From the NCBI GenBank assembly GCA_014435945.1, contig GCA_014435945.1_4088.1: DNA of 64,000 bases; one strand, given 5' to 3'. The notes under the pieces are model-generated. The model did not search any database. It worked only from the letters and a program-made list of their open reading frames with translations, and was not told where the DNA came from. The DNA comes from a phage. Positions within the stretch are counted from its first letter, which is position 1; each line of letters opens with the position of its first letter. Made by a program: the position numbers and the translations under genes. Below are positions 725-22,355 of the stretch, piece after piece.

Positions 725-755
725 TTGACATAAGATATCAGTACTGTATAATGTT
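725..755 (+). promoter_or_regulatory. sigma70-like promoter TTGACA-N17-TATAAT (spacer contains AGTACTG)
   Basis: ttgacataagatatcagtactgtataat seen directly. Confidence 0.55.
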
Positions 756-845: not shown

Positions 846-1154
846 ATGTTTCAAACTAACACTCAAGGTTTTGTAATCATCGATTTGAACCAAAACAGCG
901 GTTATTGGATGAAACCTACTGACGCATGTATGCAGTTTGATTTTTTAGGTTACAGGATTAGTGTAAGTACTGGTGCTTCTGTACTGAGAGGTGGTTGTAT
1001 CGTTGAACATCTGGTAACTGATCCAGAAGGTCGTGAGTATGAAATCGCAGGTTCAGTACAAGATGCCATTATGTTTGTATGTCAGCGTGAAATGAATGGT
1101 TCGAATTCAAATGCACTGACTCATGCTCTTTCTCAAGAAGTGGAGGTTCGTTAA
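846..1154 (+). CDS. hypothetical protein
   Basis: ORF track; promoter and structured leader upstream. Confidence 0.5.
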   Translation: MFQTNTQGFVIIDLNQNSGYWMKPTDACMQFDFLGYRISVSTGASVLRGGCIVEHLVTDPEGREYEIAGSVQDAIMFVCQREMNGSNSNALTHALSQEVEVR

Positions 1155-1399
1155 TGAAATATATCGTAGCAGTACTCGTAGCATTTTTACTCACTGCATG
1201 TGATGCTTCAACCAAAGAACGCACAAGTGATTTTATTCTCCCGACTGAATTAAAAGAAGCCGGATGTAAGATTTATCGTATGCAAAAGGACGGTGCTGAC
1301 GTAACCTTGTATACAGTTTATTGTCCTAATGCAAATACAAGTACTGGATACACTAGCGGTAAAACACGAATCAACACTTCCGTAATTCATGGAGAATAA
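1154..1399 (+). CDS. putative lipoprotein (signal peptide with LTAC lipobox)
   Basis: N-terminus MKYIVAVLVAFLLTAC; start overlaps upstream stop. Confidence 0.5.
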   Translation: MKYIVAVLVAFLLTACDASTKERTSDFILPTELKEAGCKIYRMQKDGADVTLYTVYCPNANTSTGYTSGKTRINTSVIHGE

Positions 1400-1401
1400 C
1401 A

Positions 1402-1770
1402 ATGAGCCTTGATACAACACGTGTAGCAGGTGATTTAACTCGTCTGAATAATGAAGAATTTCTTGCTGAAATAAAGTACAAGCTTGAAAAACTGGCACGA
1501 AGTGCTGAAGTAATTGAAGTTGAAGGTCACTTACCAATGGACCAATTCCATACGTTCAACGAAGATATGGTTTATTATCCAAATGAAATTTGGATTGAGT
1601 GGGAGTCATGGACTAACAATGTTCTCCGAATCGAAGGGTATTGTGTGAATTATGAATCTGAACCTGGTGATGTTACAAAAACTCTCTCAATTTGGTGTAC
1701 AAAAACACATGAACTAGTTGAGGTGAATTTGAATTATATGAAGGGCTTCCGTTGGGGTGATGTTCAATGA
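1402..1770 (+). CDS. hypothetical protein
   Basis: ORF track. Confidence 0.5.
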   Translation: MSLDTTRVAGDLTRLNNEEFLAEIKYKLEKLARSAEVIEVEGHLPMDQFHTFNEDMVYYPNEIWIEWESWTNNVLRIEGYCVNYESEPGDVTKTLSIWCTKTHELVEVNLNYMKGFRWGDVQ

Positions 1771-2042
1771 TTAAAAAACTATTGACTGTGGTCTTTGTAT
1801 TCTGTACAATGTTTCTTACAGCATGTAATGATGACGGCAGGTTTAGTGCAAAAGACTTAGTTCGTCAGGATTGTACATTCACAGGTAAGTCTTTTATTAA
1901 CGAGTATGAAATATGTACACAATCAGGTCGTATCTGTGGTGGTTGGGAAAAACGTCAGGAGCGATTGTATGTATATGAATGCCCTGGACATCTCAACAAA
2001 GTACTAAGCACACACAAACTTGTTTATGATAAGGTTGAATAA
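1767..2042 (+). CDS. putative lipoprotein (LTAC lipobox)
   Basis: N-terminus MIKKLLTVVFVFCTMFLTAC; overlapping start/stop. Confidence 0.5.
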   Translation: MIKKLLTVVFVFCTMFLTACNDDGRFSAKDLVRQDCTFTGKSFINEYEICTQSGRICGGWEKRQERLYVYECPGHLNKVLSTHKLVYDKVE

Positions 2043-2257
2043 TGACTACCAATGAAATGATGCAGGTTATTTGGGATAAAGGTTGTGATATTAAAATCAC
2101 TAGTACTGATGTTCGTGTATTCAAAACTGAATACATGGAGTACTTGGACCTTGATACTTATAATAATATTGTATCAATTGAACACAAAGGTGCAGTACTG
2201 GAAACAATTGACGTAGTACTGAAGAAAGCTACCGACCTATTAGGAGTGGCAGTGTGA
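2042..2257 (+). CDS. hypothetical protein
   Basis: ORF track; overlapping start/stop coupling. Confidence 0.45.
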   Translation: MTTNEMMQVIWDKGCDIKITSTDVRVFKTEYMEYLDLDTYNNIVSIEHKGAVLETIDVVLKKATDLLGVAV

Positions 2258-2400
2258 ATAACAAAGAGTGGGAAGATTACCGCAAGAAGTGCAGGGAGTT
2301 TGATAAAGAACTTACTGGTGCAGTGAATGCGGTAATGTGGGTATCTTCAATTATTGCAGTACTTGGTTTGGGTTCTATTATTATTAATAAATTTTTATAG
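2254..2400 (+). CDS. putative 48-aa protein with C-terminal TM helix (GTG start)
   Basis: Read manually; fills gap between neighbours; GTG overlaps upstream stop. Confidence 0.3.
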   Translation: MNNKEWEDYRKKCREFDKELTGAVNAVMWVSSIIAVLGLGSIIINKFL

Positions 2401-2408
2401 GAATTCCC

Positions 2409-2609
2409 ATGCTTACTTTATATCTCGCAGTAGTTCTCACCAATGGTGAGATCACTCGTACTATTGGTGAAGGTGTATATAAAACACCTGACCAGTGCTA
2501 CTCTGCTACTCATTGGCCTCGCGATAGTGGGGATGAAACTCGCACTGAATTCAAATGCATGAAAGTAAAAGGTGATTTTGTTAACCTTAAGGTTATCGAG
2601 GCGAAATAA
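2409..2609 (+). CDS. hypothetical protein
   Basis: ORF track. Confidence 0.45.
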   Translation: MLTLYLAVVLTNGEITRTIGEGVYKTPDQCYSATHWPRDSGDETRTEFKCMKVKGDFVNLKVIEAK

Positions 2610-3124
2610 TGGATATTAATGAGTTGTTGATCTTATTGTTTAATCGTGGAAATGATGTAAGACGTTCTGAATATCAAGACAAAATTCACATTGAAACTGA
2701 TAAATGTTATGGTAAAACAACTCATGAGATTTTGAAGCCAAATGGCAAACGATATGCCGATGTATGTTTTCATGAACGAAGTGATGGTAGTGAAATAATC
2801 AGTACTGAAATTGTGTTTTATGATAGATCCTCGGCAGGTTCGTATGAAATAGAACTTATATATTGTCCTGGTTCAGAAACACACAATAAACGTCAGATAT
2901 TATATGATGTTTATTCACCACCAGGTGTAGCTGAATATTTTGTTATTGATTACAGTACTGAAGAAAGTGTGTTTCAACAGAGCTTGATTCATAACTTCCA
3001 GTTGAATGACCCAAATGTACCAAAGTTGTTCAAACTACTCGATACTATCGATGTTGATTTTGAATTTGTTATGTGCATTAGAACTTCCTTGATCGATGAA
3101 TTTATGGAACTACTTAATATATGA
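2609..3124 (+). CDS. hypothetical protein
   Basis: ORF track. Confidence 0.5.
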   Translation: MDINELLILLFNRGNDVRRSEYQDKIHIETDKCYGKTTHEILKPNGKRYADVCFHERSDGSEIISTEIVFYDRSSAGSYEIELIYCPGSETHNKRQILYDVYSPPGVAEYFVIDYSTEESVFQQSLIHNFQLNDPNVPKLFKLLDTIDVDFEFVMCIRTSLIDEFMELLNI

Positions 3125-3342
3125 ATCGTTACTACATTGTTTATGAGCATGTGTCTGAGTTTAATAATGTACGTGGCTATAAGAAAGAAGTACAGAAGAT
3201 TGATGTATTTGTTCGTGCATTAAGTCCAACACATGCACTATTTAAATTGTTTGATGAAGTAACTAAGTACAACACACCAAAAACACAACGCTATGTTGAA
3301 ACAGTACATAGTGTAATACTCACAGAATATGATGGAGAATGA
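3121..3342 (+). CDS. hypothetical protein
   Basis: ORF track. Confidence 0.45.
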   Translation: MNRYYIVYEHVSEFNNVRGYKKEVQKIDVFVRALSPTHALFKLFDEVTKYNTPKTQRYVETVHSVILTEYDGE

Positions 3343-3345
3343 CAA

Positions 3346-3564
3346 ATGAATTTATATCTAGTTGAAGGGTCAGTACAAGTATCCAAGCAAGACGGAGACG
3401 GGTATCGTTTTTCACATGTGGAAAATTTTAAGTACGTAGTAAAGGCCGATGGTCAGTACGACGCAGAAATTCAGGTTGAAGAATCATTCCGTAAGAAGAA
3501 TGATATTGGTAAATTCGAATACCAGAACTTACAATTCACTGTATGGCCTAGCATTAATGACTAA
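3346..3564 (+). CDS. hypothetical protein
   Basis: ORF track. Confidence 0.45.
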   Translation: MNLYLVEGSVQVSKQDGDGYRFSHVENFKYVVKADGQYDAEIQVEESFRKKNDIGKFEYQNLQFTVWPSIND

Positions 3565-3565
3565 A

Positions 3566-3769
3566 ATGTGGTGGTGTCATGGTGTCTACAATGTCTATGA
3601 ATATGGTAGATTCAAAATGAGCAGCACCTATGCCAGACGTGTTAATGCGAAAAACCAAGTTGATGCTGCTTGTGAGATTGTAGAGTGGTATGCAGAGTTC
3701 AATGCAATTGATTTTATGTACGAAATAGTTACAATAAATGTTGTACAAATTGACACGTCTTTGATATAA
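3566..3769 (+). CDS. hypothetical protein (internal ATG of track ORF 3449..3769 chosen to avoid overlap)
   Basis: ATG directly after upstream stop. Confidence 0.35.
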   Translation: MWWCHGVYNVYEYGRFKMSSTYARRVNAKNQVDAACEIVEWYAEFNAIDFMYEIVTINVVQIDTSLI

Positions 3770-3803
3770 TAACTGTATCAAAACAACCGCAACTGAGGAT
3801 ACT

Positions 3804-4466
3804 ATGTTAGTTAATCTTAATTTCATCACTTCTCCTGATTGGGCATTGCGTGGTGTTTCTTTGAACTTTAAAGAAACTAATTTCGACTACATTGGTGATT
3901 GTACTTTAGTTAATGCTACATTTGATCCTCATCATCCTTTTTGGGCTGAGATTCATGATCCTAATGTAAACAATAGTACATCTGTTATGACTATTGTACA
4001 GACGAAACATACAGGTATCCTCTCAGGTTACAGACCTGAACATGCCATCGAGCACTTCACTGATTATGATGTAGTAGATGCATATCCAATGATCCATGAA
4101 GATGGAAGTTTATACACGTCAGAAGACTTCCGTGCTATCTTTAATAGTACTGATAACATTCTACCAAGTGGTCGTCCACGCCCTGAGTCTTATCTTATGC
4201 ACCCGTCTTATGGTGTAGCAGATACGCTTGAACAGATTTTGACGAAGTACAAGAACCTTATTGAAGGTCCAGAAGAAATTGTCTTGTGCTATCATCCAGT
4301 ACTGAAGTCTGACCAACCAGAGAGTGGTGGGTGGCGTTGGCATAAGAATGGTGAGTACATCGGTACTAAGCGTAGTAAAGAACGCTTTGAGTACTTGTAT
4401 GATGAGCCAGATGTTGAGGTTGTTTTATGTTATAATTTTCTTAAGGTGAAAAAGAAATGTATCTAG
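3804..4466 (+). CDS. hypothetical protein (220 aa)
   Basis: ORF track; SD GAGGA upstream. Confidence 0.55.
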   Translation: MLVNLNFITSPDWALRGVSLNFKETNFDYIGDCTLVNATFDPHHPFWAEIHDPNVNNSTSVMTIVQTKHTGILSGYRPEHAIEHFTDYDVVDAYPMIHEDGSLYTSEDFRAIFNSTDNILPSGRPRPESYLMHPSYGVADTLEQILTKYKNLIEGPEEIVLCYHPVLKSDQPESGGWRWHKNGEYIGTKRSKERFEYLYDEPDVEVVLCYNFLKVKKKCI

Positions 4467-4699
4467 TATTGAGTTTTGTAGTCGCATTATTGTTTATGTT
4501 CTACCCTACACTAGTAGCAGTAGCCACTAAACGAAAGCTGGTGGATATCACTACGGTATTCTTGCTAAACGTGGCACTCGTTCTAGTGTCTATTATCATT
4601 CCCGTGAACTTTACGGTTATTGACATGGCATCTGTATTACTATTCGTCTTCAGTTATCTTATGCTTATTGAAGAAAAACCTGTTGACAAACGTTTGTAG
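4457..4699 (+). CDS. small membrane protein (2 predicted TM)
   Basis: Hydrophobic composition. Confidence 0.45.
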   Translation: MYLVLSFVVALLFMFYPTLVAVATKRKLVDITTVFLLNVALVLVSIIIPVNFTVIDMASVLLFVFSYLMLIEEKPVDKRL

Positions 4700-4712
4700 T
4701 ACTGTATAATGG
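4682..4712 (+). promoter_or_regulatory. sigma70-like promoter TTGACA-N16-TATAAT (AGTACTG before -10)
   Basis: ttgacaaacgtttgtagtactgtataat. Confidence 0.5.
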
Positions 4713-4757
4713 TTCTTGTAGTCTGAAACTTAACACTTAAACTTGAGGATATAAAAC

Positions 4758-5084
4758 ATGTTATCAGTTCTAATTTCAATTCCTGCTCTAATTCTGTTAT
4801 GGGTTATGGTTTTCGAATTCTTCATTAAAGACGAAACCGAGCGTGATGAGTTTCGTGAGTTGTTTATGTTAGACTCACCCATTGCACGAATCTTCTTCGT
4901 TGTAGTACTTATTTCAGTACTGTCATGGTTAGTAAGTTTTGTATTACCAATTGGACCATTTGTTTCAATTATGAATTTAGTTGAGAACATTGTTGGTATT
5001 GTATGGTTTACTAATGCATTGTTTGCTGGTAAAGTTTCCATTTGGTTTGATATCTTGAAAGATAAACTAACTAGTAAGAAGTAA
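4758..5084 (+). CDS. small membrane protein (about 3 TM)
   Basis: Hydrophobic composition; SD GAGGA. Confidence 0.5.
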   Translation: MLSVLISIPALILLWVMVFEFFIKDETERDEFRELFMLDSPIARIFFVVVLISVLSWLVSFVLPIGPFVSIMNLVENIVGIVWFTNALFAGKVSIWFDILKDKLTSKK

Positions 5085-5162
5085 CGTTCAAAAAGTCTCT
5101 AATAGTATTAAATACTTCTGTACAAATAATATGTGCAGAAGTATTGCTCGTTAGAGGTTATA

Positions 5163-5528
5163 ATGAAAAAATATATAAGAATGATAATGGTGTTTGTAGT
5201 ATTCATGCTTTATTCAAGGTTCAGTACAGCCGTACCTGCTTACCTTGATTGTATGGGAAACGATGGAACATGGCATGTACTTTCTAATGACCCACAAAAT
5301 GGAAACAATATTGTCGTAGATGATGAGGTTTACCGTTTCAGGGCCGAGAGTTTGATTGGGAATAAAAAGGTATCGACATATAAATCAGATGCTGGTATAA
5401 TAGCAAATGTAATATTGATAGTGGACCCCAAGACAAAGGATGGGGATATTTACATAGTCATTTATCAAGATTCGTCGAATAAACGCGATCAGGACATTGA
5501 TAAATTGAATATTCATTGTGAACTGTAA
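5163..5528 (+). CDS. secreted protein (signal peptide); start moved to internal ATG with SD
   Basis: N-terminus MKKYIRMIMVFVVFMLYS; GAGG upstream. Confidence 0.5.
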   Translation: MKKYIRMIMVFVVFMLYSRFSTAVPAYLDCMGNDGTWHVLSNDPQNGNNIVVDDEVYRFRAESLIGNKKVSTYKSDAGIIANVILIVDPKTKDGDIYIVIYQDSSNKRDQDIDKLNIHCEL

Positions 5529-5538
5529 GGTATAACAA

Positions 5539-5922
5539 ATGATAAACGATGTAATGCTTTATGTATTAATTACTCCGATTCTTATTAACTCAGTAATAAC
5601 TATTTCAATGGCATTATTTGGTATAGTAGCAATTGTTTATGCTGTTAGTACTGGAAAGTATACTTTAATTAGTAAGGTTGATTCATGGTTCGCATCTGAT
5701 AGTGTACCATATTCAGCTAGTATGATTACGATTGGTATTCTAATCGTTGCATTTACACTGCACTGTATTGGTTTTATTAATACAAGTATTTTTTCAGTTT
5801 TTATTGGTCTATCATTATATCCATCACTTTGGTACTTGATTTATGTAACCGATGTTTGGTATAATAACTACAAGCAGTACAAAGTGAAGAAATCCATTTT
5901 ATCCAAAGGAAACAAATCATGA
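5539..5922 (+). CDS. multi-pass membrane protein
   Basis: Hydrophobic composition. Confidence 0.5.
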   Translation: MINDVMLYVLITPILINSVITISMALFGIVAIVYAVSTGKYTLISKVDSWFASDSVPYSASMITIGILIVAFTLHCIGFINTSIFSVFIGLSLYPSLWYLIYVTDVWYNNYKQYKVKKSILSKGNKS

Positions 5923-6269
5923 AAGTAATTTTGTTTTTTGTTTGTATGATTATATGTGGTATGTCTTATGCAGAACCATTACCTGGACTAGTCTGTACTG
6001 AAGGTGATATTAAACACATTTACCAAGGTGATAGCGATGACCATACTATCGTTTATATCGACGGTGAAGTGTATAATTTTGTTAAAGAACATACCGTAGG
6101 TGACATTAGTTTTACGCAGTACTCGAACGATACTGATCCCAATATGCTTGCATTTCTTCAAGTTGATGTATATGAAGATAGTAATGGCGAACAGTATGTT
6201 AAACTTGTGATGATGCGTAAGGCAGCAAAACAGGCAACATTCGGTGGCTTGTGTAAATATGAGGACTAA
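5919..6269 (+). CDS. secreted protein (signal peptide)
   Basis: N-terminus MKVILFFVCMIICGMSYA. Confidence 0.5.
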   Translation: MKVILFFVCMIICGMSYAEPLPGLVCTEGDIKHIYQGDSDDHTIVYIDGEVYNFVKEHTVGDISFTQYSNDTDPNMLAFLQVDVYEDSNGEQYVKLVMMRKAAKQATFGGLCKYED

Positions 6270-6273
6270 ACAT

Positions 6274-6465
6274 ATGTTGATTTATCAATGTGATAACATT
6301 CGTGTTATGCAGCATCCCTACTTACAAATCTTTGATGTGCAGCAGTATATGGAAGGTGATGACCCAAGAACCTATGGTCGTAAGTATGATTACTTCACTG
6401 TAAAGCAGTGTCGTAACATCAAAGAAGTACGACAATTAGTTCAAGAACTTCAAAATAAAGGTTGA
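6274..6465 (+). CDS. hypothetical protein (internal ATG with GAGG SD)
   Basis: Avoids 26-nt overlap of track start 6244. Confidence 0.4.
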   Translation: MLIYQCDNIRVMQHPYLQIFDVQQYMEGDDPRTYGRKYDYFTVKQCRNIKEVRQLVQELQNKG

Positions 6466-6500
6466 CTTCGGTCAGCCTTTTTTGTTATAATTATTTCATC
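6458..6500 (+). promoter_or_regulatory. PeSL-like cassette: terminator hairpin (UUCG loop) with embedded TTGACT -35, T-run, TATAAT -10
   Basis: ggttgacttcggtcagccttttttgttataat; resembles RB49-type promoter-early stem-loops. Confidence 0.7.
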
Positions 6501-6520
6501 AAATACTGGGGATTTTAATT

Positions 6521-6961
6521 ATGTACGTATATCGTTTTGAACTTAAATTCAGTTATATTGAACCTAACTTAGATCCAGCAAAAACAGTAGGTCCGTTCGC
6601 ACGGTACTCTTCACGATACAGTACTAAAAATGGATTTGACCGTTTGTGCATGACCACGCCTTCGCAATTCCAACCAGAACCAACTGAAGATGGAATCTAT
6701 TCAATCAAACGTGGCTGGGCATTTGGCTGTCAGAGTTTGAATGATTTGTTTAAGTTCTTTACTATGGACTTGGGTAAATTACATCGTGCAGGGTTTGCTG
6801 TATCAGTATATGAAGTTCCTGATAATCATGTTGACATTGGTCGTAGTCAGGTTCAGTACTATTGTGGTAGTGCCAATCTGGTTCGTATCATGTCAGTGAG
6901 AGAAGCAAAGGATGAGTACCGCCAAAGTAAAAGAGTAATACATGAGGCTGTATATGGATAA
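6521..6961 (+). CDS. hypothetical protein
   Basis: ORF track; downstream of PeSL-like promoter. Confidence 0.5.
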   Translation: MYVYRFELKFSYIEPNLDPAKTVGPFARYSSRYSTKNGFDRLCMTTPSQFQPEPTEDGIYSIKRGWAFGCQSLNDLFKFFTMDLGKLHRAGFAVSVYEVPDNHVDIGRSQVQYYCGSANLVRIMSVREAKDEYRQSKRVIHEAVYG

Positions 6962-7298: not shown

Positions 7299-7312
7299 CT
7301 TAGAGGATAATC

Positions 7313-7579
7313 ATGAAGCTTAAATTACAATACAATGGTTTTACTTTGCGTAACGACACTGAGTTTGTCAATCGTTCACCAGGTGCTGAGTTGTTTTTGC
7401 GAGAGATGAACATTCCTTTTGTCATCACTACTGTTGGTGACCGTGAAGTGCTACAATACGCAGAGCATCCTGAGATTGATGTTCCGTGGTATTCTGAGCA
7501 TATGTACATGGATATGGCCCGTCGCTACGACTGTAAGTTCGTAGTTGAAGGTGATAAAATTACAGTCCAATTCAAATAA
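7313..7579 (+). CDS. hypothetical protein
   Basis: ORF track; SD GAGGA. Confidence 0.5.
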   Translation: MKLKLQYNGFTLRNDTEFVNRSPGAELFLREMNIPFVITTVGDREVLQYAEHPEIDVPWYSEHMYMDMARRYDCKFVVEGDKITVQFK

Positions 7580-7590
7580 GGTAACTTAAA

Positions 7591-7884
7591 ATGATCAGTA
7601 CTTCAGTAAATGCAAGCATCGTGGCAGACGTAGAAATGGTTAAAGAATGTACAGACGAAACCCTTCGCAACATGTACATCAATGATTTGATTTCAGAGTA
7701 CGGAAGTCGTGGTGTTCATGAGTTTGTTCGCCTAAGCGGTGAATTGATGAAGAATCGCATTCGTATGAAGCTTAATGTGCATCCAAAAGCATGGGCGTTT
7801 ACAATGAAGTACGCTGAAGATATTGTTGAGTTGCGTCGCAATGATGTGTATAATCGTTTACACAATGGTACATTAAAGGACTAA
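7591..7884 (+). CDS. hypothetical protein
   Basis: ORF track. Confidence 0.5.
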   Translation: MISTSVNASIVADVEMVKECTDETLRNMYINDLISEYGSRGVHEFVRLSGELMKNRIRMKLNVHPKAWAFTMKYAEDIVELRRNDVYNRLHNGTLKD

Positions 7885-7890
7885 ATTATA

Positions 7891-7921
7891 GGAATCCGTA
7901 AAAGGATTCCTGTTCTTGTTT
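7891..7921 (+). terminator. intrinsic terminator (GGAATCC-N6-GGATTCC plus T-rich tail)
   Basis: Inverted repeat and T-run seen directly. Confidence 0.55.
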
Positions 7922-7934
7922 ATAAGGTAATAAA

Positions 7935-8159
7935 ATGAAATATCTAGTACTAGTACTGCTATTCTTGAGTACTGTTGTATGTGCTAAACCAAAGTATCAT
8001 GTAGTGTGTATCAACGAGATGGAAGGATATACTGAAACATATAAGAACCATATTGTTGAAGTTGCAGCCCAAGGTTCCTATGGGACCATCATCTTCCTTA
8101 AGAACAATGTGATTGTTCAGTACAAAAAAGATTCAAATTGTAAAGTGACTAAAAATTGA
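7935..8159 (+). CDS. small secreted protein (signal peptide)
   Basis: N-terminus MKYLVLVLLFLSTVVCA. Confidence 0.5.
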   Translation: MKYLVLVLLFLSTVVCAKPKYHVVCINEMEGYTETYKNHIVEVAAQGSYGTIIFLKNNVIVQYKKDSNCKVTKN

Positions 8160-8229
8160 TCTAGATCAATTTTTCAGATATTCTCTGTAAATAATAGCAG
8201 TACAGAACATTATTTTACGGAGGTGTAAT

Positions 8230-8466
8230 ATGGAAACTATAATCATCATATGTGCGTTGTTTGCATTTTTGGTAATGTGGTCACCAACATTCATTGCATA
8301 TAAAATGAAAAATAAAAATGCAGAAGCAATTATGTACGTAAACTTATGTTGCATACTAACTTATGGAATACTTTTATTCTTTACTGAATTTACATTAATC
8401 CCAGTAGTAGTTTGTTCATCAATGTTTATTTGGTTGTTTCTGCTTTATGAATCTATTAAAAAATAA
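8230..8466 (+). CDS. small membrane protein
   Basis: Hydrophobic composition; SD GGAGG. Confidence 0.45.
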   Translation: METIIIICALFAFLVMWSPTFIAYKMKNKNAEAIMYVNLCCILTYGILLFFTEFTLIPVVVCSSMFIWLFLLYESIKK

Positions 8467-8520
8467 AAGATATAGGGTTGGTAATATGCCATCCCTTTTA
8501 CTTTATGTGGGGTTTAATTA

Positions 8521-9093
8521 ATGAATAGAAAAGGTAAGTTCAAAGTATCAAAGAAGAACAAAAGTTCTAGATTTAGACCTATAACTTTAACTTTTAAGGC
8601 TAAAGAAGAATTAACTGCACTTAGTAAAAAGATAATTTCATCTAAGATTAAAGTATCATACGTAAATTCGTTAAAATTTCAGAAGGTTAAACCACAAGAC
8701 AAACTCATTTCACTTATATTTGAACGTAATGATTTTGAGATATTAGTAGATGATTATAGAGCCTATAATGCTGGATTCATCCATGTCACTTGTAATACCG
8801 AACTAACTGAGTTGGAACATTTGACATGTATCATAAGTGTAGATAACGGTGTGGTGAAGTACAAATTTTTACATTTTACCAATATCAATAATGGAATGGG
8901 TGTACAATCCAGAACTATAGTACCTACATGTGATGTGACTAATTTAGCAAAGCTCAATGAAGAAGAATATTTTCAAGAAAGCATTGTAACTGAGCATTTA
9001 GATGCTATAATAGCAACTTACAAAGAATGCATATGGGTTTTGAATGCGATAAAGCCCAAATTGTGTTTAATGAATGTCGTTCGTGATTTATAA
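8521..9093 (+). CDS. hypothetical protein (190 aa)
   Basis: ORF track. Confidence 0.5.
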   Translation: MNRKGKFKVSKKNKSSRFRPITLTFKAKEELTALSKKIISSKIKVSYVNSLKFQKVKPQDKLISLIFERNDFEILVDDYRAYNAGFIHVTCNTELTELEHLTCIISVDNGVVKYKFLHFTNINNGMGVQSRTIVPTCDVTNLAKLNEEEYFQESIVTEHLDAIIATYKECIWVLNAIKPKLCLMNVVRDL

Positions 9094-9106
9094 CTGGAGA
9101 TGTAGT

Positions 9107-9550
9107 ATGGGTTGGATTAACGTTAATAGCATTGAGCTAAATGAGCAAGACATATTTGCCTTTGTTAATTTGGTAGAGAACATTGCTATTAAAGGTCGTC
9201 TGTTTAGTTCATCGGACGGTAAAAAATGGATCTCTCTTATGAACGACAATGGCGAGATTTATGACGTTATGCAACTACCTCATTGGGCTTATAAGAATAC
9301 ATCTGATGATGTGATGGCTGCTGTTATGCGTGAGTTTGAGAAGCTGCCAGGTGGTGATATTAAGAACATCGTATTCAATGCAGAACGCATGAACTACACA
9401 CCAGAGCAGCTTCAACAGTTGGCAATTGCTGCCTATCAAGCTGCCATTAAGAAACCTGAATGTGTGATATTAAAGTACACACCGGACTTGAAGTTAACAC
9501 TAGAAGATATGGATTCCTTTATCTTCAGTTCAGAACTTAAACAGTACTGA
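9107..9550 (+). CDS. hypothetical protein
   Basis: Internal ATG after GGAG SD. Confidence 0.5.
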   Translation: MGWINVNSIELNEQDIFAFVNLVENIAIKGRLFSSSDGKKWISLMNDNGEIYDVMQLPHWAYKNTSDDVMAAVMREFEKLPGGDIKNIVFNAERMNYTPEQLQQLAIAAYQAAIKKPECVILKYTPDLKLTLEDMDSFIFSSELKQY

Positions 9551-9661
9551 TTTGACTTTGGGACAACCATTTCTTACGTGATATAATCTTAAGTGTCTGT
9601 AGAAATAAACAGCACATGAAGTATAAATATTAAAGTAATTTATCTCTTTAAGGAGTATGAA

Positions 9662-10045
9662 ATGGTTGATAAATGGAATAAGAAAGATCCATCGCATGAT
9701 GTGGATATTTCTGGAATTGATAATGCACATAAGCATAAGTATCTTGATTCACTAGGTCTACTAAAGCCTGACCAAAGTCTTGCACATGATCGTCCTTCAC
9801 GTGAAAAAGCTTTCAGTCTAGAATCACTAGGCCATGAATTGAATCGTGTATTTGAAGATCATCCAATTTATGTACGTGATATCATTGAGAAACTTAAAGT
9901 GACTCCTAAAGAGCACTTCAAGGCAACAGTACACGCAGCATTCCGTGCACTACATGAAGCACTAAAGAAAACTCATAACCTTCGCAAGATTCATGATGAC
10001 ATCGTGAACTCTATTGAAGGCGAAAAACATAAGTTTAAAAAATAA
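9662..10045 (+). CDS. hypothetical protein; shares an SLGLL motif with 10893..12404
   Basis: ORF track; SD AAGGAG. Confidence 0.5.
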   Translation: MVDKWNKKDPSHDVDISGIDNAHKHKYLDSLGLLKPDQSLAHDRPSREKAFSLESLGHELNRVFEDHPIYVRDIIEKLKVTPKEHFKATVHAAFRALHEALKKTHNLRKIHDDIVNSIEGEKHKFKK

Positions 10046-10051
10046 TTAAAA

Positions 10052-10085
10052 GGGGTTGACTTCAGTCAGCCCTTTGTCGTATAAT
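10052..10085 (+). promoter_or_regulatory. PeSL-like terminator-promoter cassette
   Basis: ggggttgacttcagtcagccctttgtcgtataat. Confidence 0.65.
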
Positions 10086-10132
10086 ATTTTCATCAAGTGA
10101 TACAAAATACAAACAACGTGAGGTATTAAATT

Positions 10133-10246
10133 ATGCAAGGTACTAAATTCATCATCGCTGCCCTAATCGCTGCTGTTGTAGTGGGTACAGTATGTTATTC
10201 AATTGACACCTATATCAATACACCTAGTGTTGAACAAACCAAATAA
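10133..10246 (+). CDS. putative 37-aa membrane peptide
   Basis: Read manually; SD GAGG; hydrophobic. Confidence 0.3.
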   Translation: MQGTKFIIAALIAAVVVGTVCYSIDTYINTPSVEQTK

Positions 10247-10254
10247 GGGATATC

Positions 10255-10518
10255 ATGGCTGAAACATTATCACTATATGCGTTAGTACTGTTATTTGTCG
10301 GATTTCTTCCTGCACTCATTACAGCCATTCGTGTTGTTAAACATGAAGCTGCATTGATTGTATGTAGTATTGGGTCGAACATTCTATTGTATTTCTTTTT
10401 GACAAATACTATTGTACTGTTTGCTTTCTTTATCATGATTCTGTGGGTACTTGTAATTCTCGGATTCTTCATTTGGTCATTGGTTGATCCTAAGAAAAAA
10501 ACAGGAGAAGTGAAATGA
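10255..10518 (+). CDS. small membrane protein
   Basis: Hydrophobic composition. Confidence 0.45.
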   Translation: MAETLSLYALVLLFVGFLPALITAIRVVKHEAALIVCSIGSNILLYFFLTNTIVLFAFFIMILWVLVILGFFIWSLVDPKKKTGEVK

Positions 10519-10811
10519 AATTAATTATAGCAATGATGATGTGTTTGGCTTTCCCTGTACTGGCTACTCCTAATCTGGACTGCACACTGTTGCGTTCAGA
10601 TGGTGACACACTTGAAATCAACACATATGAACTCTTTGGTCCAAGTGTAGTGGAGAATGAAACCACCTACAATTTCAAAGCTATTGACTTTGAAGGTAAT
10701 GTTCCAGTACTAACTACAATGACTATTGACAAAACTACTTTACTCGGACGAATCACCACACAACGCGGAGAAAGTAAAACATTCACAGCGAAAGCTGACT
10801 GTAACTACTAA
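10515..10811 (+). CDS. small secreted protein (signal peptide)
   Basis: N-terminus MKLIIAMMMCLAFPVLA. Confidence 0.5.
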   Translation: MKLIIAMMMCLAFPVLATPNLDCTLLRSDGDTLEINTYELFGPSVVENETTYNFKAIDFEGNVPVLTTMTIDKTTLLGRITTQRGESKTFTAKADCNY

Positions 10812-10830
10812 TGGTATAGTACAGTGAAAA

Positions 10831-10866
10831 TAGGGTTGACTTCGGTCAACCTTTTCTTTATACTAT
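10831..10866 (+). promoter_or_regulatory. PeSL-like terminator-promoter cassette
   Basis: gggttgacttcggtcaaccttttctttatact. Confidence 0.6.
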
Positions 10867-10892
10867 AAATATAGTCATAGAGAATAAACAAT

Positions 10893-12404
10893 ATGAAATC
10901 TATGGAGAGAAATCAAATGCCAGGTCAATTTACTGATAAAAATGGCGGGAACATGGCAGGTCACTCTGATAAATGGAGTGAACGCAATCGTCGTCAAAAT
11001 AGCTACCAAGCAGGACAGGGGTCACGTGGATCACGTAATCAAGGGACAGGTTTAGCTGGTAAGGCAAACGCAGAAGCAGGTGAAGTTAAGAGTACTGAGA
11101 ACATGACTGAGCTAGAAAAGCTACGTTATGTTAACTCATTAGGTCTTCTTAACGCAACACAGAAACAACGCCTTGCTGATATGGAACGTGCTGAGAAAGA
11201 ACAAGCAGTTCCTAAAGAAGAACCAAAACCAGAAGCTCCTAAAGCAGCTAACCCTGTTAAAGAGTTATCTGATAACTTAGGTAAGATCTTTGCTAACAAA
11301 CCACAGTTGATTCAGGGTATTGTCAAAGCACTACAGGCAGTTCCTAAAGAAGAACTCAAAGGTAAAGCACAAGCTGTACTTGATGCAATGAAAGGTAATA
11401 AGAGCACTGAACCCACTGAAGTATTCAGTACTATCATGCGTGCACTTGAAGGTACACACAAAGAAGATTCGAAAGAACCTGAACAGGGTGAAGCAAGTCT
11501 TGATGGTATTCTTAAAACTTTTGATAGTATTGGTAAAGCAGACCGTGCTAATGCCCAGCAAATCAAGAATGTACTGGCTAAACTTGAAAACCGTTTAGAA
11601 GGTAAAGACGATAAGGTTAAGCTCGTATCAGATGCAGTTAACAGTGCACTTAAATCTTATGTACAAGGTGAGAAAAGTCGCTTCGTAACAGCTATGGATG
11701 CTGCATTCAACACTATGAAAAAGTATGAAGCAGAACATGGTGAGAAGGTAACACCAGATGGTTATCTAAAGCGTGCAGATGAAGAAGGTGCAGTTGAACA
11801 GAAAGATGTAGAACCTGAACAAGAAGATCTACCTGATACCGTTGATATGGATGGATATATTCATCGTCCTGAGATGGAAGAGTTTGGGTCAGATAAAGAA
11901 GGTTTTGAACATGCAATGGCAGTATATAAAGCATTAGTTAAAAATCCAGATTATGCTAACCGTTTTGTTGACGAGTTTGATAGTGCATGGAATAACTACA
12001 AAGACAAAGGTTATGACTTCCCTGCTGAAGCTGCATTCTTTGAACTTGGTAAACTATTAGCTAAACATGGAATTGACGTTGGTTCATCTGATTCCGAAGG
12101 TATGGAAGAAGAACATCTTGAAATGACCGATAAATCAATTCATGAACTTCAAAAGCTAATGATGTGGATATCCGAGATTGGTAAAAAAGCAGGTGCTGAT
12201 AGTAAAAGTATCAACAAAAACATTAGTTGGATTAAAGATAATGTTGGTAACAATGCTCGTAAACTACAAAAGGCGTGGGCTGATTTAGTAAATGGTGCAG
12301 ATGATGTTGACATTGAATCACCAGAAGCATATGAGTATGCACTAACTACACTTGATAACTCATTCAAAGAGTACGACCGTGGTGTTGGAAAAGATAAAAA
12401 ATAA
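10893..12404 (+). CDS. large charged, low-complexity protein (503 aa; start could be ATG 10917)
   Basis: ORF track; K/E-rich. Confidence 0.55.
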   Translation: MKSMERNQMPGQFTDKNGGNMAGHSDKWSERNRRQNSYQAGQGSRGSRNQGTGLAGKANAEAGEVKSTENMTELEKLRYVNSLGLLNATQKQRLADMERAEKEQAVPKEEPKPEAPKAANPVKELSDNLGKIFANKPQLIQGIVKALQAVPKEELKGKAQAVLDAMKGNKSTEPTEVFSTIMRALEGTHKEDSKEPEQGEASLDGILKTFDSIGKADRANAQQIKNVLAKLENRLEGKDDKVKLVSDAVNSALKSYVQGEKSRFVTAMDAAFNTMKKYEAEHGEKVTPDGYLKRADEEGAVEQKDVEPEQEDLPDTVDMDGYIHRPEMEEFGSDKEGFEHAMAVYKALVKNPDYANRFVDEFDSAWNNYKDKGYDFPAEAAFFELGKLLAKHGIDVGSSDSEGMEEEHLEMTDKSIHELQKLMMWISEIGKKAGADSKSINKNISWIKDNVGNNARKLQKAWADLVNGADDVDIESPEAYEYALTTLDNSFKEYDRGVGKDKK

Positions 12405-12410
12405 ACATTT

Positions 12411-12447
12411 AAAAGGTTGACTTCGGTCAACCTTTTTTTGTAAATAT
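12411..12447 (+). promoter_or_regulatory. PeSL-like terminator-promoter cassette (weaker -10)
   Basis: aggttgacttcggtcaacctttttttgtaaat. Confidence 0.5.
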
Positions 12448-12475
12448 TGTAGAGGGTTTTATAAGAGGTAATGCA

Positions 12476-12727
12476 ATGTTTAAATATGTTTTATTTTCAC
12501 TTGTATTGTTTGCTGATATAGTTTATAGTACTGAATACCAGTGCTCCATTGCTAGACAGGAGTTTAGAAACGGTGAGTTCTATACCAAGTCTTACACTAG
12601 AGGATTGGTACATGACAATAATAAAACTATAGGGTTCAATGCATTTGATAACAAAGATCGATATACGTCTGGAATACTATCTGAACGTAAGTCGGATATA
12701 CTAGGTATCGAGCGTGAATTCCGGTGA
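12476..12727 (+). CDS. secreted protein fragment (signal peptide); possibly one gene with 12714..13055
   Basis: N-terminus MFKYVLFSLVLFADIVYS. Confidence 0.4.
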   Translation: MFKYVLFSLVLFADIVYSTEYQCSIARQEFRNGEFYTKSYTRGLVHDNNKTIGFNAFDNKDRYTSGILSERKSDILGIEREFR

Positions 12728-13055
12728 CACGGTTGCAATGTGTAATGATATTGAGAGTACTAAGAAAGTATATACTAATGGTGAAACTACCTTTAGATTC
12801 CACAATCTTACTACTAATGAAAGTTTATACTTCTACAACTGTAAAGAGTTCATTAAACCTGTGGATAACTCATGTGATATGCCGGAGCCAAAAGCTGCTG
12901 TATGTGAGGAACCACAATCCAAAGCTGACAAATCGGATAAAAAAGAAAACAAAAAGAAAGCTAAAGATGATAAAGATAAAAAGTCCCCTAAGCCAAATCC
13001 ATTTGAAAAGCCAAAGAATGAAAAGCCAAAACCAGACATGACATGTAAAATATAA
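12714..13055 (+). CDS. hypothetical protein with Lys-rich tail; overlaps 12476..12727 in another frame
   Basis: ORF track; overlap suggests frameshift or split gene. Confidence 0.35.
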   Translation: MNSGDTVAMCNDIESTKKVYTNGETTFRFHNLTTNESLYFYNCKEFIKPVDNSCDMPEPKAAVCEEPQSKADKSDKKENKKKAKDDKDKKSPKPNPFEKPKNEKPKPDMTCKI

Positions 13056-13060
13056 AAGAA

Positions 13061-13096
13061 AAGGGTTGACTTCGGTCGGCCCTTTTTGCTATAATC
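13061..13096 (+). promoter_or_regulatory. PeSL-like terminator-promoter cassette
   Basis: gggttgacttcggtcggccctttttgctataat. Confidence 0.7.
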
Positions 13097-13121
13097 ATTT
13101 CATCAACTACTGGAGGCAAAC

Positions 13122-13535
13122 ATGTTAAAAGTTATTTTCCGTTCTATCAGTTCATTACTTCTTATGATTAGTTCAGTTTGTTATGCAAATGAAGTATCTG
13201 ATTTATTTGAGAAGAATTACCCAACTGCACAAGAGATGGGTGTTTTAAAATGCAAGCTAACTTCGTACAACATCATCGGCAGTAAACTTGTACTGGAACA
13301 TGAACGTAGTACACCAATCCCTCTAGTAGAAGAAGGCAGTACCTTTAGCTTCAAGTACGGGGTGAACGTAACATCTGGTGTAATGAACAATGTTGATGCA
13401 GAGACTGGTTCAACATGGAGTACTAGCGGTAAAGATGTGTTTCATCGTATGCGTGAAAATGGTAAACTGAAGTACGTATATGAAAGTTCATTCATGAAAC
13501 GTGTATTCATTATAAAAAATTGTGTACCAGCATAA
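13122..13535 (+). CDS. secreted protein (signal peptide)
   Basis: N-terminus MLKVIFRSISSLLLMISSVCYA. Confidence 0.5.
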   Translation: MLKVIFRSISSLLLMISSVCYANEVSDLFEKNYPTAQEMGVLKCKLTSYNIIGSKLVLEHERSTPIPLVEEGSTFSFKYGVNVTSGVMNNVDAETGSTWSTSGKDVFHRMRENGKLKYVYESSFMKRVFIIKNCVPA

Positions 13536-14170: not shown

Positions 14171-14179
14171 GGATTGATA

Positions 14180-14521: not shown

Positions 14522-14522
14522 G

Positions 14523-21990: not shown

Positions 21991-21991
21991 C

Positions 21992-22354: not shown

Positions 22355-22355
22355 A

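What the first reader, a model, noticed from the sequence alone, without database searches (positions are those of the whole stretch)
1154..13535. High density of small secreted proteins and lipoproteins in the early region
At least nine small ORFs begin with signal peptides (1154, 1767 with LTAC lipoboxes; 5163, 5919, 7935, 10515, 12476, 13122; also 55285). Phage-encoded small lipoproteins and periplasmic proteins frequently mediate superinfection exclusion or receptor masking, so this is a plausible anti-superinfection repertoire.
Basis: inference. Interest (0 to 1): 0.35.

Follow-up and report, generated by a model that had tools for sequence, protein, structure and literature searches.

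The report
Exported-protein island in a jumbo coliphage
A giant E. coli phage carries a fast-evolving, early-expressed block of genes for small proteins sent to the cell envelope; two of them fold like bacterial lysozyme inhibitors, so the block may protect the infected cell from a second phage attack, but no function has been shown.

Summary
The window is an Asteriusvirus (121Q/PBECO4-like, RaK2 clade) jumbo coliphage. A rule-based classifier finds exactly the nine named ORFs as exported and no others among 139 genes: 8 of 31 in the region against 1 of 108 outside (p=2e-5), with a 0.3% false-positive rate. Orthologues keep the signal-peptide architecture while its sequence drifts. Six of seven Sec-type proteins share an invariant N-to-C two-cysteine clasp (p=6e-9).

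The region has near-consensus sigma-70 promoters, some inside repeated terminator/promoter hairpins like T4 PeSLs, so "early" is supported by inference.

Existing labels in relatives (Cor, Llp-type lipoprotein, spackle, Imm) fail direct tests. The Cor hit vanishes without the signal peptide. There is no similarity to Llp or T4 Sp. The "spackle" gene is all-beta. Imm scores about half the Pfam cutoff. Both lipoproteins have inner-membrane-type +2 residues and are not next to receptor-binding genes, which argues against receptor masking.

The parts
1154..1399 (+). Small lipoprotein: signal peptide MKYIVAVLVAFLLTA|C, +2 Asp, two further conserved Cys. Member of phrog_902, a widespread family of lytic-phage lipoproteins of unknown function.
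1767..2042 (+). Small lipoprotein: LTA|C-N-D, with four further Cys in the mature chain. Restricted to Asteriusvirus (phrog_31263); a 35%-identical orthologue in JNE01 has LTG|C-D-E.
4457..4699 (+). 80-aa 2-TM inner-membrane protein with a YPTLVAVATKR...LLN motif reminiscent of T4 Imm. First gene of the conserved five-gene module.
4758..5084 (+). 108-aa 2-3-TM membrane protein, preceded by a perfect 12/12 sigma-70 promoter (4683-4710). Sits upstream of 5163.
5163..5528 (+). Secreted protein, acidic (pI 4.6), with the two-Cys clasp. Paralogue of 5919.
5539..5922 (+). 127-aa 4-TM membrane protein. Its stop overlaps the start of 5919 (ATGA), suggesting translational coupling.
5919..6269 (+). [not shown]
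7935..8159 (+). Secreted 57-aa mature protein, basic (pI 9.0), with the two-Cys clasp. Variable: absent from ph0011 and RaK2, and replaced in JNE01 by a non-homologous gene of the same design.
8230..8466 (+). 78-aa 3-TM membrane protein with an SPTFIAYKMK motif. Sub-threshold hit to Pfam Imm_superinfect (15.7 bits against a cutoff of 27.9). Absent from 121Q, A4, ph0011 and RaK2.
10255..10518 (+). 87-aa 3-TM membrane protein (LPALITAIR motif). Its stop overlaps the start of 10515. Found only in the closest relatives.
10515..10811 (+). Secreted protein, acidic (pI 4.4), with the two-Cys clasp. Aligns end to end (33% identity, Cys in register) with the 55285 family.
12476..12727 (+). Secreted 65-aa mature protein with one Cys. 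The weakest signal peptide of the set, but the 121Q orthologue has a cleaner one (MKKYIIFGIVLFSSTSYG|A).
13122..13535 (+). Secreted 115-aa mature protein with the two-Cys clasp. 40-56% identical in 121Q and JNE01, absent from A4, ph0011 and RaK2. Own promoter at 13066-13095.
55285..55584 (+). Secreted protein, acidic (pI 4.3), with the two-Cys clasp. AF2 model is a six-stranded small beta-barrel. Lies in the direct terminal repeat of relatives. Labelled 'protein spackle' in fEgEco12 without support.
725..752 (+). Perfect sigma-70 consensus promoter (TTGACA-16-TATAAT) upstream of the operon containing 1154.
10052..10085 (+). Composite terminator/early-promoter hairpin (PeSL-like). Left boundary of the variable slot holding 10255/10515.
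10832..10864 (+). Composite terminator/early-promoter hairpin (PeSL-like). Right boundary of the same slot.
12411..12436 (+). Same hairpin element directly upstream of 12476. Strong terminator, weak -10 box.
13062..13095 (+). Same hairpin element with an 11/12 promoter directly upstream of 13122.

Best explanation
The region is a hyperplastic island, transcribed early by host RNA polymerase, in a RaK2-like jumbo coliphage. Its products are sent to the cell envelope.

Contents: two lipoproteins that probably stay on the periplasmic face of the inner membrane; six Sec-exported small proteins, five of them small disulfide-clasped domains; and several small polytopic inner-membrane proteins.

Core: a five-gene module (4457-4758-5163-5539-5919: membrane, membrane, secreted, membrane, secreted) conserved from E. 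coli to Klebsiella phages. The other genes are cassettes that come and go between composite terminator/promoter repeats.

Status of each step: export, early promoters, paralogy, synteny and turnover are shown computationally. The barrel fold is predicted. Inhibition, targets and exclusion are inference.
For: - Export.
- Early transcription: 26 near-consensus sigma-70 promoters on the + strand against 2.7+-1.8 expected, ten of them in 1-16 kb and directly upstream of the 1154, 4758-5163, 10255-10515 and 13122 units. A clade relative, PA5oct, depends on host RNAP (PMC7318152).
- Fast evolution and turnover: against 121Q, median identity is 55% for Sec-type proteins, 69% for small TM proteins and 88% for other genes (p=1e-4 and 3e-3). 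Several genes are absent in relatives. A non-homologous gene of the same design occupies the 7935 slot in JNE01. Repeat-bounded slots have different content in 121Q.
- Conserved module: RaK2 ORF263-267 is syntenic at 23-46% identity.
- 5163 and 5919 are homologous: HHalign probability 91%, E 1e-6.
- Charge: 5163, 5919, 10515 and 55285 have pI 4.3-4.6, like T4 Spackle (4.6), which binds a basic patch on gp5 lysozyme (PMC7677548).
- Precedent: T4 uses an early periplasmic disulfide-bonded lysozyme inhibitor plus a small inner-membrane protein for exclusion (PMC7677548).
Against: - There is no experimental or homology link to any known exclusion protein. Cor, Llp, Sp and Imm all fail or are sub-threshold.
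- Foldseek does not reproduce the PliC ranking. Its best hit is the lipocalin-like barrel Tp0751 (E 4e-3, TM 0.52), followed by avidins, so the fold may be a generic up-and-down barrel.
- The SGxxY inhibitory loop of MliC/PliC is absent. PhiA, which also lacks it, showed no inhibition in vitro (PMC8334348).
- Known MliC/PliC targets are c-type lysozymes, not phage T4-type enzymes.
- The membrane partners of 5163 and 5919 are not detectably paralogous.
- 55285 is only a generic small barrel.
- 7935, 12476 and 13122 are basic or neutral and of unknown fold.
- Two genes inside the island are annotated as virion structural proteins in relatives, so the island is not uniformly 'early accessory'.
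- The 1154 lipoprotein family is conserved across phages with different receptors and hosts, which fits a generic role rather than a phage-specific exclusion role.
Confidence: 0.4

Rival explanations
1. A heterogeneous set of accessory exported ORFans with no common purpose. They cluster only because hyperplastic, PeSL-bounded early regions are where jumbo phages accumulate new genes. Individual roles could include ligand binding (lipocalin/avidin-like barrels), interference with host periplasmic enzymes, envelope stress signalling or envelope-based defences, or nothing essential.
For: - Only 5163 and 5919 are homologous; the other pairs are unrelated by profile comparison.
- Folds are generic barrels by Foldseek and for 55285.
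- Charge properties are mixed.
- Cassette turnover occurs between repeats.
- PeSL regions of T4-type phages collect ORFans of adaptive or unknown function (PMC4122927).
Against: - Strong, non-random enrichment for exported and membrane proteins in one region.
- A shared two-Cys design in 6 of 7 Sec-type proteins.
- A five-gene membrane/secreted module conserved in order across genera.
- Replacement of one gene by another of the same design, which suggests selection for a class of function.
Confidence: 0.3
2. Control of the phage's own lysis. The periplasmic proteins and their membrane partners would act as antiholin or lysis-inhibition factors, or as safety inhibitors of the phage's own muramidases, setting lysis timing rather than excluding other phages.
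For: - A periplasmic location with adjacent small membrane proteins resembles the holin/antiholin logic of T4 (T, RI; established knowledge).
- A PliC-like fold would suit inhibition of the phage's own lysozyme.
- T4 sp mutants were first seen as lysis phenotypes (annotation; PMC7677548).
Against: - The promoters are early-type and no endolysin or holin gene is evident in the region.
- T4 RI is helical and unrelated.
- No spanin arrangement is present: the lipoproteins have inner-membrane-type +2 residues and no type-II TM partner.
- Lysis genes are usually conserved, whereas these are hypervariable.
Confidence: 0.15
3. Receptor masking by Llp/Cor-type lipoproteins. The lipoproteins 1154, 1767 and possibly 12476 would bind the phage's outer-membrane receptor from the periplasm and block adsorption.
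For: - They are small lipoproteins with an intramolecular Cys pair, expressed from an early-type region.
- Pipeline labels in relatives read 'lytic conversion lipoprotein' and 'Cor'.
- There is a weak PHROG Cor hit.
Against: - The Cor hit disappears without the signal peptide.
- There is no similarity to Llp 8A60 at E<=10.
- The +2 Asp is invariant in 1154 orthologues and acidic or Asn in distant homologues, predicting inner-membrane retention.
- The genes are not adjacent to receptor-binding or tail-fibre genes in any phage examined.
- The family spans phages of E. coli, Salmonella, Cronobacter and Vibrio with different receptors.
- 12476 has no lipobox.
Confidence: 0.08
4. The N-termini are not cleaved signal peptides but N-terminal membrane anchors (or chance hydrophobic stretches), so the proteins are membrane-tethered or cytoplasmic.
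For: Only a rule-based predictor was used. 12476 has an Asp in its h-region. 5163 has an Arg in its c-region.
Against: - False-positive rate of 0.3%.
- AXA-type sites are conserved in orthologues despite sequence drift.
- Invariant Cys pairs imply an oxidising compartment.
- Even as uncleaved anchors, the domains would still face the periplasm.
Confidence: 0.05

Closest known systems
T4 Spackle (gp61.3) together with T4 Imm
   Same: Both are early genes. Spackle is a small periplasmic protein with a cleaved signal peptide, one disulfide linking N- and C-terminal parts, and an acidic surface; it inhibits a peptidoglycan hydrolase. Imm is a small inner-membrane protein with which it mediates exclusion (PMC7677548). 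The island here likewise combines small acidic disulfide-bonded periplasmic proteins with small inner-membrane proteins, some carrying an Imm-like LPxxIAxxR motif.
   Different: There is no sequence similarity. Spackle is an alpha-helical bundle, whereas 5919 and 55285 are all-beta. The Imm Pfam score is about half the cutoff and covers only half the profile. Here the secreted and membrane genes are adjacent and partly translationally coupled; in T4 they are far apart. No function has been shown.
MliC/PliC family of bacterial lysozyme inhibitors (including Brucella PhiA)
   Different: Identity is 1-8% and there is no Pfam or HHalign signal. The SGxxY active-site loop is absent. Foldseek does not rank the family. 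The genes are phage-encoded and restricted to RaK2-like phages: 10 representatives among 1.84 billion proteins. Invariant residues are the two Cys and an Asp in an I-D-[GDN] hairpin.
T5 Llp / Cor superinfection-exclusion lipoproteins
   Same: Small phage lipoproteins with an intramolecular Cys pair, made early in infection.
   Different: There is no sequence similarity once the signal peptide is removed. The predicted sorting is to the inner rather than the outer membrane. The genes are not next to the receptor-binding protein gene. The 1154 family is spread over phages with unrelated receptors.
PeSL (promoter-early stem-loop) cassettes of T4-type phages
   Same: A repeated composite terminator plus near-consensus sigma-70 promoter that bounds variable ORFan slots in hyperplastic regions (PMC2839356, PMC4122927).
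   Different: Found here in a RaK2-like jumbo phage. It has its own consensus (GGTTGACTTCGGTCA[AG]CC, with a UUCG loop), in which the -35 box lies inside the terminator stem.

Membership tests
Sec (SPase I) signal peptide | Positively charged n-region, uncharged hydrophobic h-region of 7-16 residues, small residues at -3 and -1, no further TM segment | tested here: met
   Rule-based scan. All seven candidates pass, with a 0.3% false-positive rate. The design is conserved in orthologues. SignalP itself was not available.
Bacterial lipoprotein (SPase II) signal peptide | Lipobox [LVI][ASTVI][GAS]C after a hydrophobic stretch, with a basic n-region | tested here: met
   1154 and 1767 both have L-T-A-C. 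The lipobox is invariant in orthologues and kept in distant homologues from Vibrio, Salmonella and E. coli phages. Weak NCBIfam hits to lipoprotein N-termini.
Cor superinfection-exclusion lipoprotein (phrog_1119) | Sequence similarity of the mature domain to Cor proteins | tested here: not met
   Full-length 1154 gives E 1.5e-3 over residues 1-50. The mature chain gives no Cor hit at E<=1.
T5 Llp lytic-conversion lipoprotein | Sequence similarity to Llp (PDB 8A60) | tested here: not met
   A profile of 1154 and the 1767 sequence searched against all PDB sequences at E<=10 gave no Llp hit.
T5 Llp lytic-conversion lipoprotein | Outer-membrane anchoring (no Lol-avoidance residue at +2) | tested here: not met
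   1154 has an invariant Asp at +2. 1767 has Asn-Asp, and its JNE01 orthologue has Asp-Glu. Localisation is inferred from the sorting rule, not measured.
T5 Llp lytic-conversion lipoprotein | Gene adjacent to the receptor-binding protein or tail-tip gene | tested here: not met
   The neighbours are small hypothetical early genes here and in Vibrio, Salmonella and E. coli phages carrying 1154 homologues.
T4 Spackle | Sequence similarity to gp61.3 | tested here: not met
   phmmer and blastp of T4 Sp against all window proteins gave a best E of about 0.1, to non-secreted proteins.
T4 Spackle | Compact alpha-helical bundle fold | tested here: not met
   [not shown]
T4 Imm (Pfam PF14373 Imm_superinfect) | Score at or above the Pfam gathering threshold (27.9 bits) | tested here: not met
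   8230 scores 15.7 bits and RaK2 ORF263 scores 13.4 bits, both over the first half of the profile only. The T4 Imm control scores 58.2 bits. HHalign probability is 7-12%. An LPxxIAxxR-like motif is shared, so a distant relationship is not excluded.
MliC/PliC lysozyme inhibitors | Eight-stranded antiparallel beta-barrel with one stabilising disulfide, periplasmic | tested here: inconclusive
   [not shown]
MliC/PliC lysozyme inhibitors | SGxxY loop that enters the lysozyme active site | tested here: not met
   5163 and 5919 have no SGxxY. There are look-alike hairpins, DGEVY/DDEVY and NGEQY/DGDIY. E. coli MliC has SGARY.
MliC/PliC lysozyme inhibitors | Sequence membership (Pfam MliC domain or profile match) | tested here: not met
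   No Pfam hit at E<=0.1. HHalign against E. coli MliC gives a probability below 1%. A full HMMER scan finds only 10 relatives, all of the phage type.
MliC/PliC lysozyme inhibitors | Inhibition of a lysozyme or muramidase | not testable with these tools
   Needs purified protein and enzyme assays.
PeSL composite terminator/early-promoter cassettes | Repeated stem-loop terminator fused to a near-consensus sigma-70 promoter, bounding variable ORFs | tested here: met
   Eight copies on the + strand against 0 expected. Promoter spacing is correct. The element is conserved in five relatives, and the slot content differs between the window and 121Q.

The most novel reading that the evidence does not exclude
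RaK2-like jumbo phages would have independently recruited an MliC/PliC-type beta-barrel, duplicated it (5163, 5919) and paired each copy with a dedicated inner-membrane protein. The resulting early module would inhibit peptidoglycan hydrolases of incoming phages, or otherwise seal the envelope. It would be a structurally unrelated analogue of T4 Spackle/Imm and the first phage-encoded PliC-fold inhibitor, surrounded by a shuffling repertoire of further disulfide-clasped periplasmic effectors.
Probability: 0.2. Interest if true: 0.65.

Novelty: new variant of a known kind. Interest (0 to 1): 0.42.

Why it matters
Superinfection exclusion and envelope takeover are understood in molecular detail for only a few phages (T4 Sp/Imm, T5 Llp, P22 SieA), and essentially not at all for jumbo phages now being proposed for therapy. 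This island gives a defined, testable set of genes:

- a conserved five-gene membrane/periplasm module;
- a widespread lytic-phage lipoprotein family of unknown function, present in 575 phage genomes;
- a set of variable cassettes.

If the PliC-like barrels inhibit phage or host muramidases, that would show convergent evolution of lysozyme inhibition on a different scaffold. It could also affect phage-cocktail design, through mutual exclusion between co-administered phages.

The work also shows that several labels already deposited in GenBank for these genes (Cor, lytic conversion lipoprotein, spackle, immunity to superinfection) are not supported by direct tests and should not be propagated.

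Tried and rejected
- **Pfam, NCBIfam and PHROG scans of all nine exported proteins and ten membrane proteins.** No curated functional family was found. The weak hits (TrbK, Cor, other lipoproteins) cover only the signal peptide.
- **The precomputed Pfam tag PF16225 on 1154 homologues.** It could not be reproduced in the current Pfam even at E<=10 and was ignored.
- **One superfamily for all two-Cys proteins.** Rejected at the sequence level: only 5163 and 5919 (HHalign 91%) and, more weakly, 10515 and 55285 (33% identity in a global alignment) are related.
- **Paralogy of the membrane partners 4758 and 5539.** Not detected.
- **Spanin interpretation of the lipoproteins.** Rejected: inner-membrane-type +2 residues, no adjacent type-II membrane partner, and no proline-rich sequence.
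- **Word-indexed homologue searches.** They returned only close relatives, so the alignments behind both AF2 models are shallow (9 sequences each).
- **AFDB50 fold search.** Not available.
- **Literature.** The fEgEco12 genome paper does not discuss these genes. No paper was found for CRJP21. The text searches made found no report of a phage-encoded MliC/PliC-fold protein.
- **A possible frameshift joining 12476 to the next ORF (12714/12738-13055).** Considered but not pursued. Relatives also keep two ORFs, and no slippery site is evident.

Full report
**Identity of the window.** The window is 98-99% identical over its first 14 kb to Escherichia phages CMSTMSU, fEgEco12 and vB_Ec-M-J, and about 86% identical to 121Q and PBECO4. 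It is therefore an Asteriusvirus, a roughly 350-380 kb jumbo myovirus of the RaK2-like clade. My own gene call gives 139 genes with 87% coding density, and the first 22 kb are almost entirely + strand.

**The observation.**
- I wrote a rule-based classifier: n-region charge, uncharged hydrophobic h-region, -3/-1 rule or lipobox, and no later TM segment.
- At a strict threshold it returns exactly these nine genes and no other among the 139.
- The sites are 1154 (LTA|C-D) and 1767 (LTA|C-N-D) as lipoproteins, and 5163, 5919, 7935, 10515, 12476, 13122 and 55285 as Sec substrates.
- Controls give 0.3% positives in 6950 shuffled proteins, none in reversed proteins, and none in 35 shadow ORFs.
- Eight of 31 genes in 1154-13535 are positive against one of 108 elsewhere (Fisher p=2e-5).

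**Two independent lines agree with export.**
- In orthologues from 121Q, A4, JNE01, ph0011 and RaK2 the signal-peptide sequences change freely but keep the same architecture and a plausible cleavage site.
- Six of the seven Sec-type proteins have exactly two cysteines in the mature chain, one 5-22 residues from the new N-terminus and one within 6 residues of the C-terminus. This pattern occurs in 1 of 130 other proteins (p=6e-9). Both cysteines are invariant in every orthologue and distant family member. A conserved cysteine pair implies folding in the oxidising periplasm.
- SignalP and LipoP were not available, so formally this is a surrogate test.
- The region also holds at least seven small polytopic membrane proteins (4457, 4758, 5539, 8230, 10255 and the 13832-14867 family), so about half of its genes target the envelope.

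**Is it an 'early' region?**
- The generic promoter scan is not enriched overall (69 sites against 71 expected). However, all 21 sites scoring 10/12 or better are on the + strand.
- Counting only sites at 11/12 or better, the + strand has 26 against 2.7+-1.8 in shuffles. Ten of these lie in the first 16 kb, mostly intergenic and directly upstream of genes, including the units that carry 1154, 4758-5163, 10255-10515 and 13122.
- A distant clade member, PA5oct, depends on host RNA polymerase (PMC7318152).
- Early, host-RNAP transcription is therefore a well-supported inference, though not measured.
- A caveat is that two genes inside the island (9662 and 10893) are annotated as virion structural proteins in 121Q and RaK2.

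**A repeated terminator/promoter element.**
- Several of these promoters are part of a repeated element, GGTTGACTTCGGTCA[A/G]CC. It is a UUCG-loop hairpin followed by a T-run, with the -35 box inside the stem and TATAAT 17-18 nt downstream.
- It occurs eight times on the + strand against 0 expected, five of them in this region, and it is conserved in all relatives examined, including RaK2.
- Copies at 10054 and 10834 bound a slot. In the window the slot holds a 37-aa membrane ORF plus 10255 and 10515. In 121Q it holds only the 37-aa ORF.

**Evolutionary behaviour.**
- Against 121Q, the Sec-type proteins have a median identity of 55% and the small membrane proteins 69%, against 88% for the other genes of the region (Mann-Whitney p=1e-4 and 3e-3).
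- 8230, 10255 and 10515 are absent from 121Q. 7935, 8230, 10255, 10515, 12476 and 13122 are absent from ph0011.
- In JNE01 the 7935 slot holds a non-homologous gene of the same design: a signal peptide, two Cys and a 62-residue mature chain.
- The 5919 allele is only 86% identical in CMSTMSU, although the flanks are 98.8% identical.
- In contrast, the two lipoproteins are 92-99% conserved within most Asteriusviruses.

**Testing the labels already attached to these genes.** Deposited records call 1154 'Cor superinfection exclusion protein'; 1154, 1767 and 12476 'lytic conversion lipoprotein'; 8230 and 10255 'immunity to superinfection'; and 55285 'protein spackle'. The fEgEco12 paper does not discuss them. 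None survives a direct test.
- **Cor.** The PHROG Cor hit to 1154 (E 1.5e-3, residues 1-50) vanishes when the signal peptide is removed, while the hit to phrog_902 (unknown function) remains at 1.4e-7.
- **Llp.** Neither lipoprotein matches Llp (8A60) or anything else in the PDB at E<=10.
- **Spackle.** T4 Sp has no similarity to any secreted protein here. The AF2 model of 55285 (pLDDT 83-90 over the mature domain) is a six-stranded beta structure, whereas Spackle is an alpha-helical bundle (PMC7677548).
- **Imm.** T4 Imm scores 58 bits on PF14373, while 8230 and RaK2 ORF263 reach only 16 and 13 bits over the first half of the profile. HHalign probabilities are 7-12%. A shared LPxxIAxxR...N motif makes a distant link possible but unproven.

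**The lipoproteins.**
- The 1154 mature domain belongs to a family found in 575 phage records, all strictly lytic groups: Vequintavirinae, Felixounavirus, T5-sized Vibrio phages and Cronobacter phages.
- The family keeps the lipobox, two further cysteines and the motif LPxE[ML]...C[KN][IV]Y...VxCP...GK. Its +2 residue is Asp, Glu or Asn.
- By the established Lol-avoidance rule, Asp at +2 retains a lipoprotein in the inner membrane.
- The genes sit among small early genes near ligase or polymerase genes, never next to receptor-binding proteins.
- Together with the spread across phages that use different receptors, this argues against Llp/Cor-type jamming of an outer-membrane receptor. [quoted passage not shown]

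**The 5163/5919 pair and its module.**
- 5163 and 5919 are paralogues (HHalign probability 91%, E 1e-6).
- Each follows a small polytopic membrane protein, and the 5539 stop overlaps the 5919 start.
- The order 4457-4758-5163-5539-5919 (2-TM, 2-3-TM, secreted, 4-TM, secreted) is reproduced by RaK2 ORF263-267 at only 23-46% identity.
- The family is tiny: 10 representatives among 1.84 billion proteins. Only the two cysteines and one Asp in an I-D-[G/D/N] hairpin are invariant.

**The 5919 fold.**
- The AF2 model (mean pLDDT 78.8; 80-93 over the mature domain) is an eight-stranded beta-barrel, with the clasp cysteines on the first and last strands.
- MliC/PliC proteins are periplasmic eight-stranded barrels held by one disulfide (PMC8334348), and E. 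coli MliC has the same N/C cysteine spacing.
- The match must be tempered. Identity is 1-8%. The SGxxY inhibitory loop is absent. PhiA, which also lacks it, did not inhibit in vitro (PMC8334348). Foldseek does not list the family at all: it ranks the lipocalin-like barrel Tp0751 first (E 4e-3) and then avidins.
- The safe statement is a small up-and-down barrel with an N-to-C disulfide, whose nearest solved relatives by one method are lysozyme inhibitors.
- 55285, and by alignment 10515 (33% identity with the cysteines in register), is only a generic small barrel.
- 5163, 5919, 10515 and 55285 are strongly acidic (pI 4.3-4.6), like Spackle, which binds a basic patch on gp5 lysozyme (PMC7677548). 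7935, 12476 and 13122 are not acidic.

**Synthesis.**
- What is shown: a non-random, conserved-in-kind but fast-turning-over island of early-type genes for exported and membrane proteins. It has a five-gene core module shared across genera and PeSL-like cassette boundaries.
- What is inferred: its role. The most economical reading is envelope remodelling that protects the infected cell. The island would work like T4 Sp/Imm without being related to them, with 5163/5919 as candidate periplasmic inhibitors of a peptidoglycan hydrolase. I put about 0.4 on the protective or exclusion role for the island as a whole, and about 0.25 on the specific inhibitor mechanism.
- The main rival, at 0.3, is that these are heterogeneous exported ORFans without a common function.
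- Lysis-timing control (0.15) and Llp/Cor-type receptor masking (below 0.1) follow.

**Novelty and interest.** Small early secreted and membrane proteins are a known feature of large lytic phages, so the finding as written is not surprising. The new points are:
- the two-Cys design;
- the conserved membrane/secreted module;
- the possible PliC-type scaffold in a phage;
- the inner-membrane-type lipoprotein family common to many lytic phages;
- the demonstration that the current database labels are unsupported.

I rate it a new variant of a known kind, of moderate interest.

Noticed in passing
window 6457-6491, 10052-10085, 10832-10864, 12411-12436, 13062-13095, 17941-17974, 19388-19421, 59975-59994: A repeated composite element, GGTTGACTTCGGTCA[A/G]CC: a UUCG-loop terminator hairpin with the sigma-70 -35 box inside its stem, followed by a T-run and TATAAT. 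There are 8 copies on the + strand against 0 expected. It is conserved in 121Q, A4, JNE01, ph0011 and RaK2, and it bounds slots whose gene content differs between phages. It resembles the PeSL cassettes of T4-type phages.
   Followed up: partly
window 22763-43913 (- strand): Seventeen tandem paralogues of about 370-400 aa, annotated in relatives as RCC1-like 'regulator of chromosome condensation'. All begin MLPF[A/V]R[M/L]. There are no near-consensus sigma-70 promoters in this block.
   Followed up: no
window 44016-48999 (+ strand): A dense array of at least 15 mini-genes of about 59-70 aa, many with similar N-termini (for example M..EFY..L). This appears to be another paralogous expansion of unknown function.
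   Followed up: no
window 13832-14867 and 20288-22727: Two arrays of small (104-123 aa) 3-TM membrane proteins. The first three genes are one family (HHalign about 100%, phrog_19285). The seven in the second array are only weakly related to one another (20288 to 20626, E 1e-5).
   Followed up: partly
window 12476-13055: The secreted protein 12476 (one Cys) is followed, in another frame, by an ORF (GTG 12714 or ATG 12738 to 13055) with several Cys and a Lys/Glu/Pro-rich tail. Relatives annotate different starts for the second ORF. A split or frameshifted gene was considered, but no slippery site is evident and 121Q also has two ORFs.
   Followed up: partly
window 9662-10045 and 10893-12404: Two genes inside the 'early' island are annotated as virion structural proteins in 121Q, fEgEco12 and RaK2. 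10893 encodes a 503-aa, highly charged, low-complexity protein.
   Followed up: no
window 5919-6269; L013 1501-1851: Phage CRJP21 labels the 5919 orthologue (and the 6521 orthologue) 'structural protein' with no stated evidence. RaK2, whose record marks other genes as virion structural, leaves its orthologue as hypothetical. The 5919 allele in CMSTMSU is only 86% identical although the flanks are 98.8% identical, which suggests allele replacement.
   Followed up: partly
window 49000-51000: A low-coding, higher-GC (0.41) stretch where the GC skew changes sign. It has near-consensus sigma-70 promoters on both strands and no tRNA genes. In relatives the region downstream, including 55285, lies in the direct terminal repeat.
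   Followed up: partly
window 10133-10246: A 37-aa single-TM ORF, annotated in relatives (fEgEco12 g552; 'membrane protein' in vB_Ec-M-J; 121Q gene 200). It fell below my gene-caller's length cut-off and shares the PeSL-bounded slot with 10255/10515.
   Followed up: partly
window 236-418: A 60-aa protein with a very hydrophobic N-terminus (MQIIILIVGIILGVYG) but no basic n-region. It is more likely an N-terminal membrane anchor than a cleaved signal peptide. It is conserved in relatives, including a 31%-identical RaK2 homologue.
   Followed up: no
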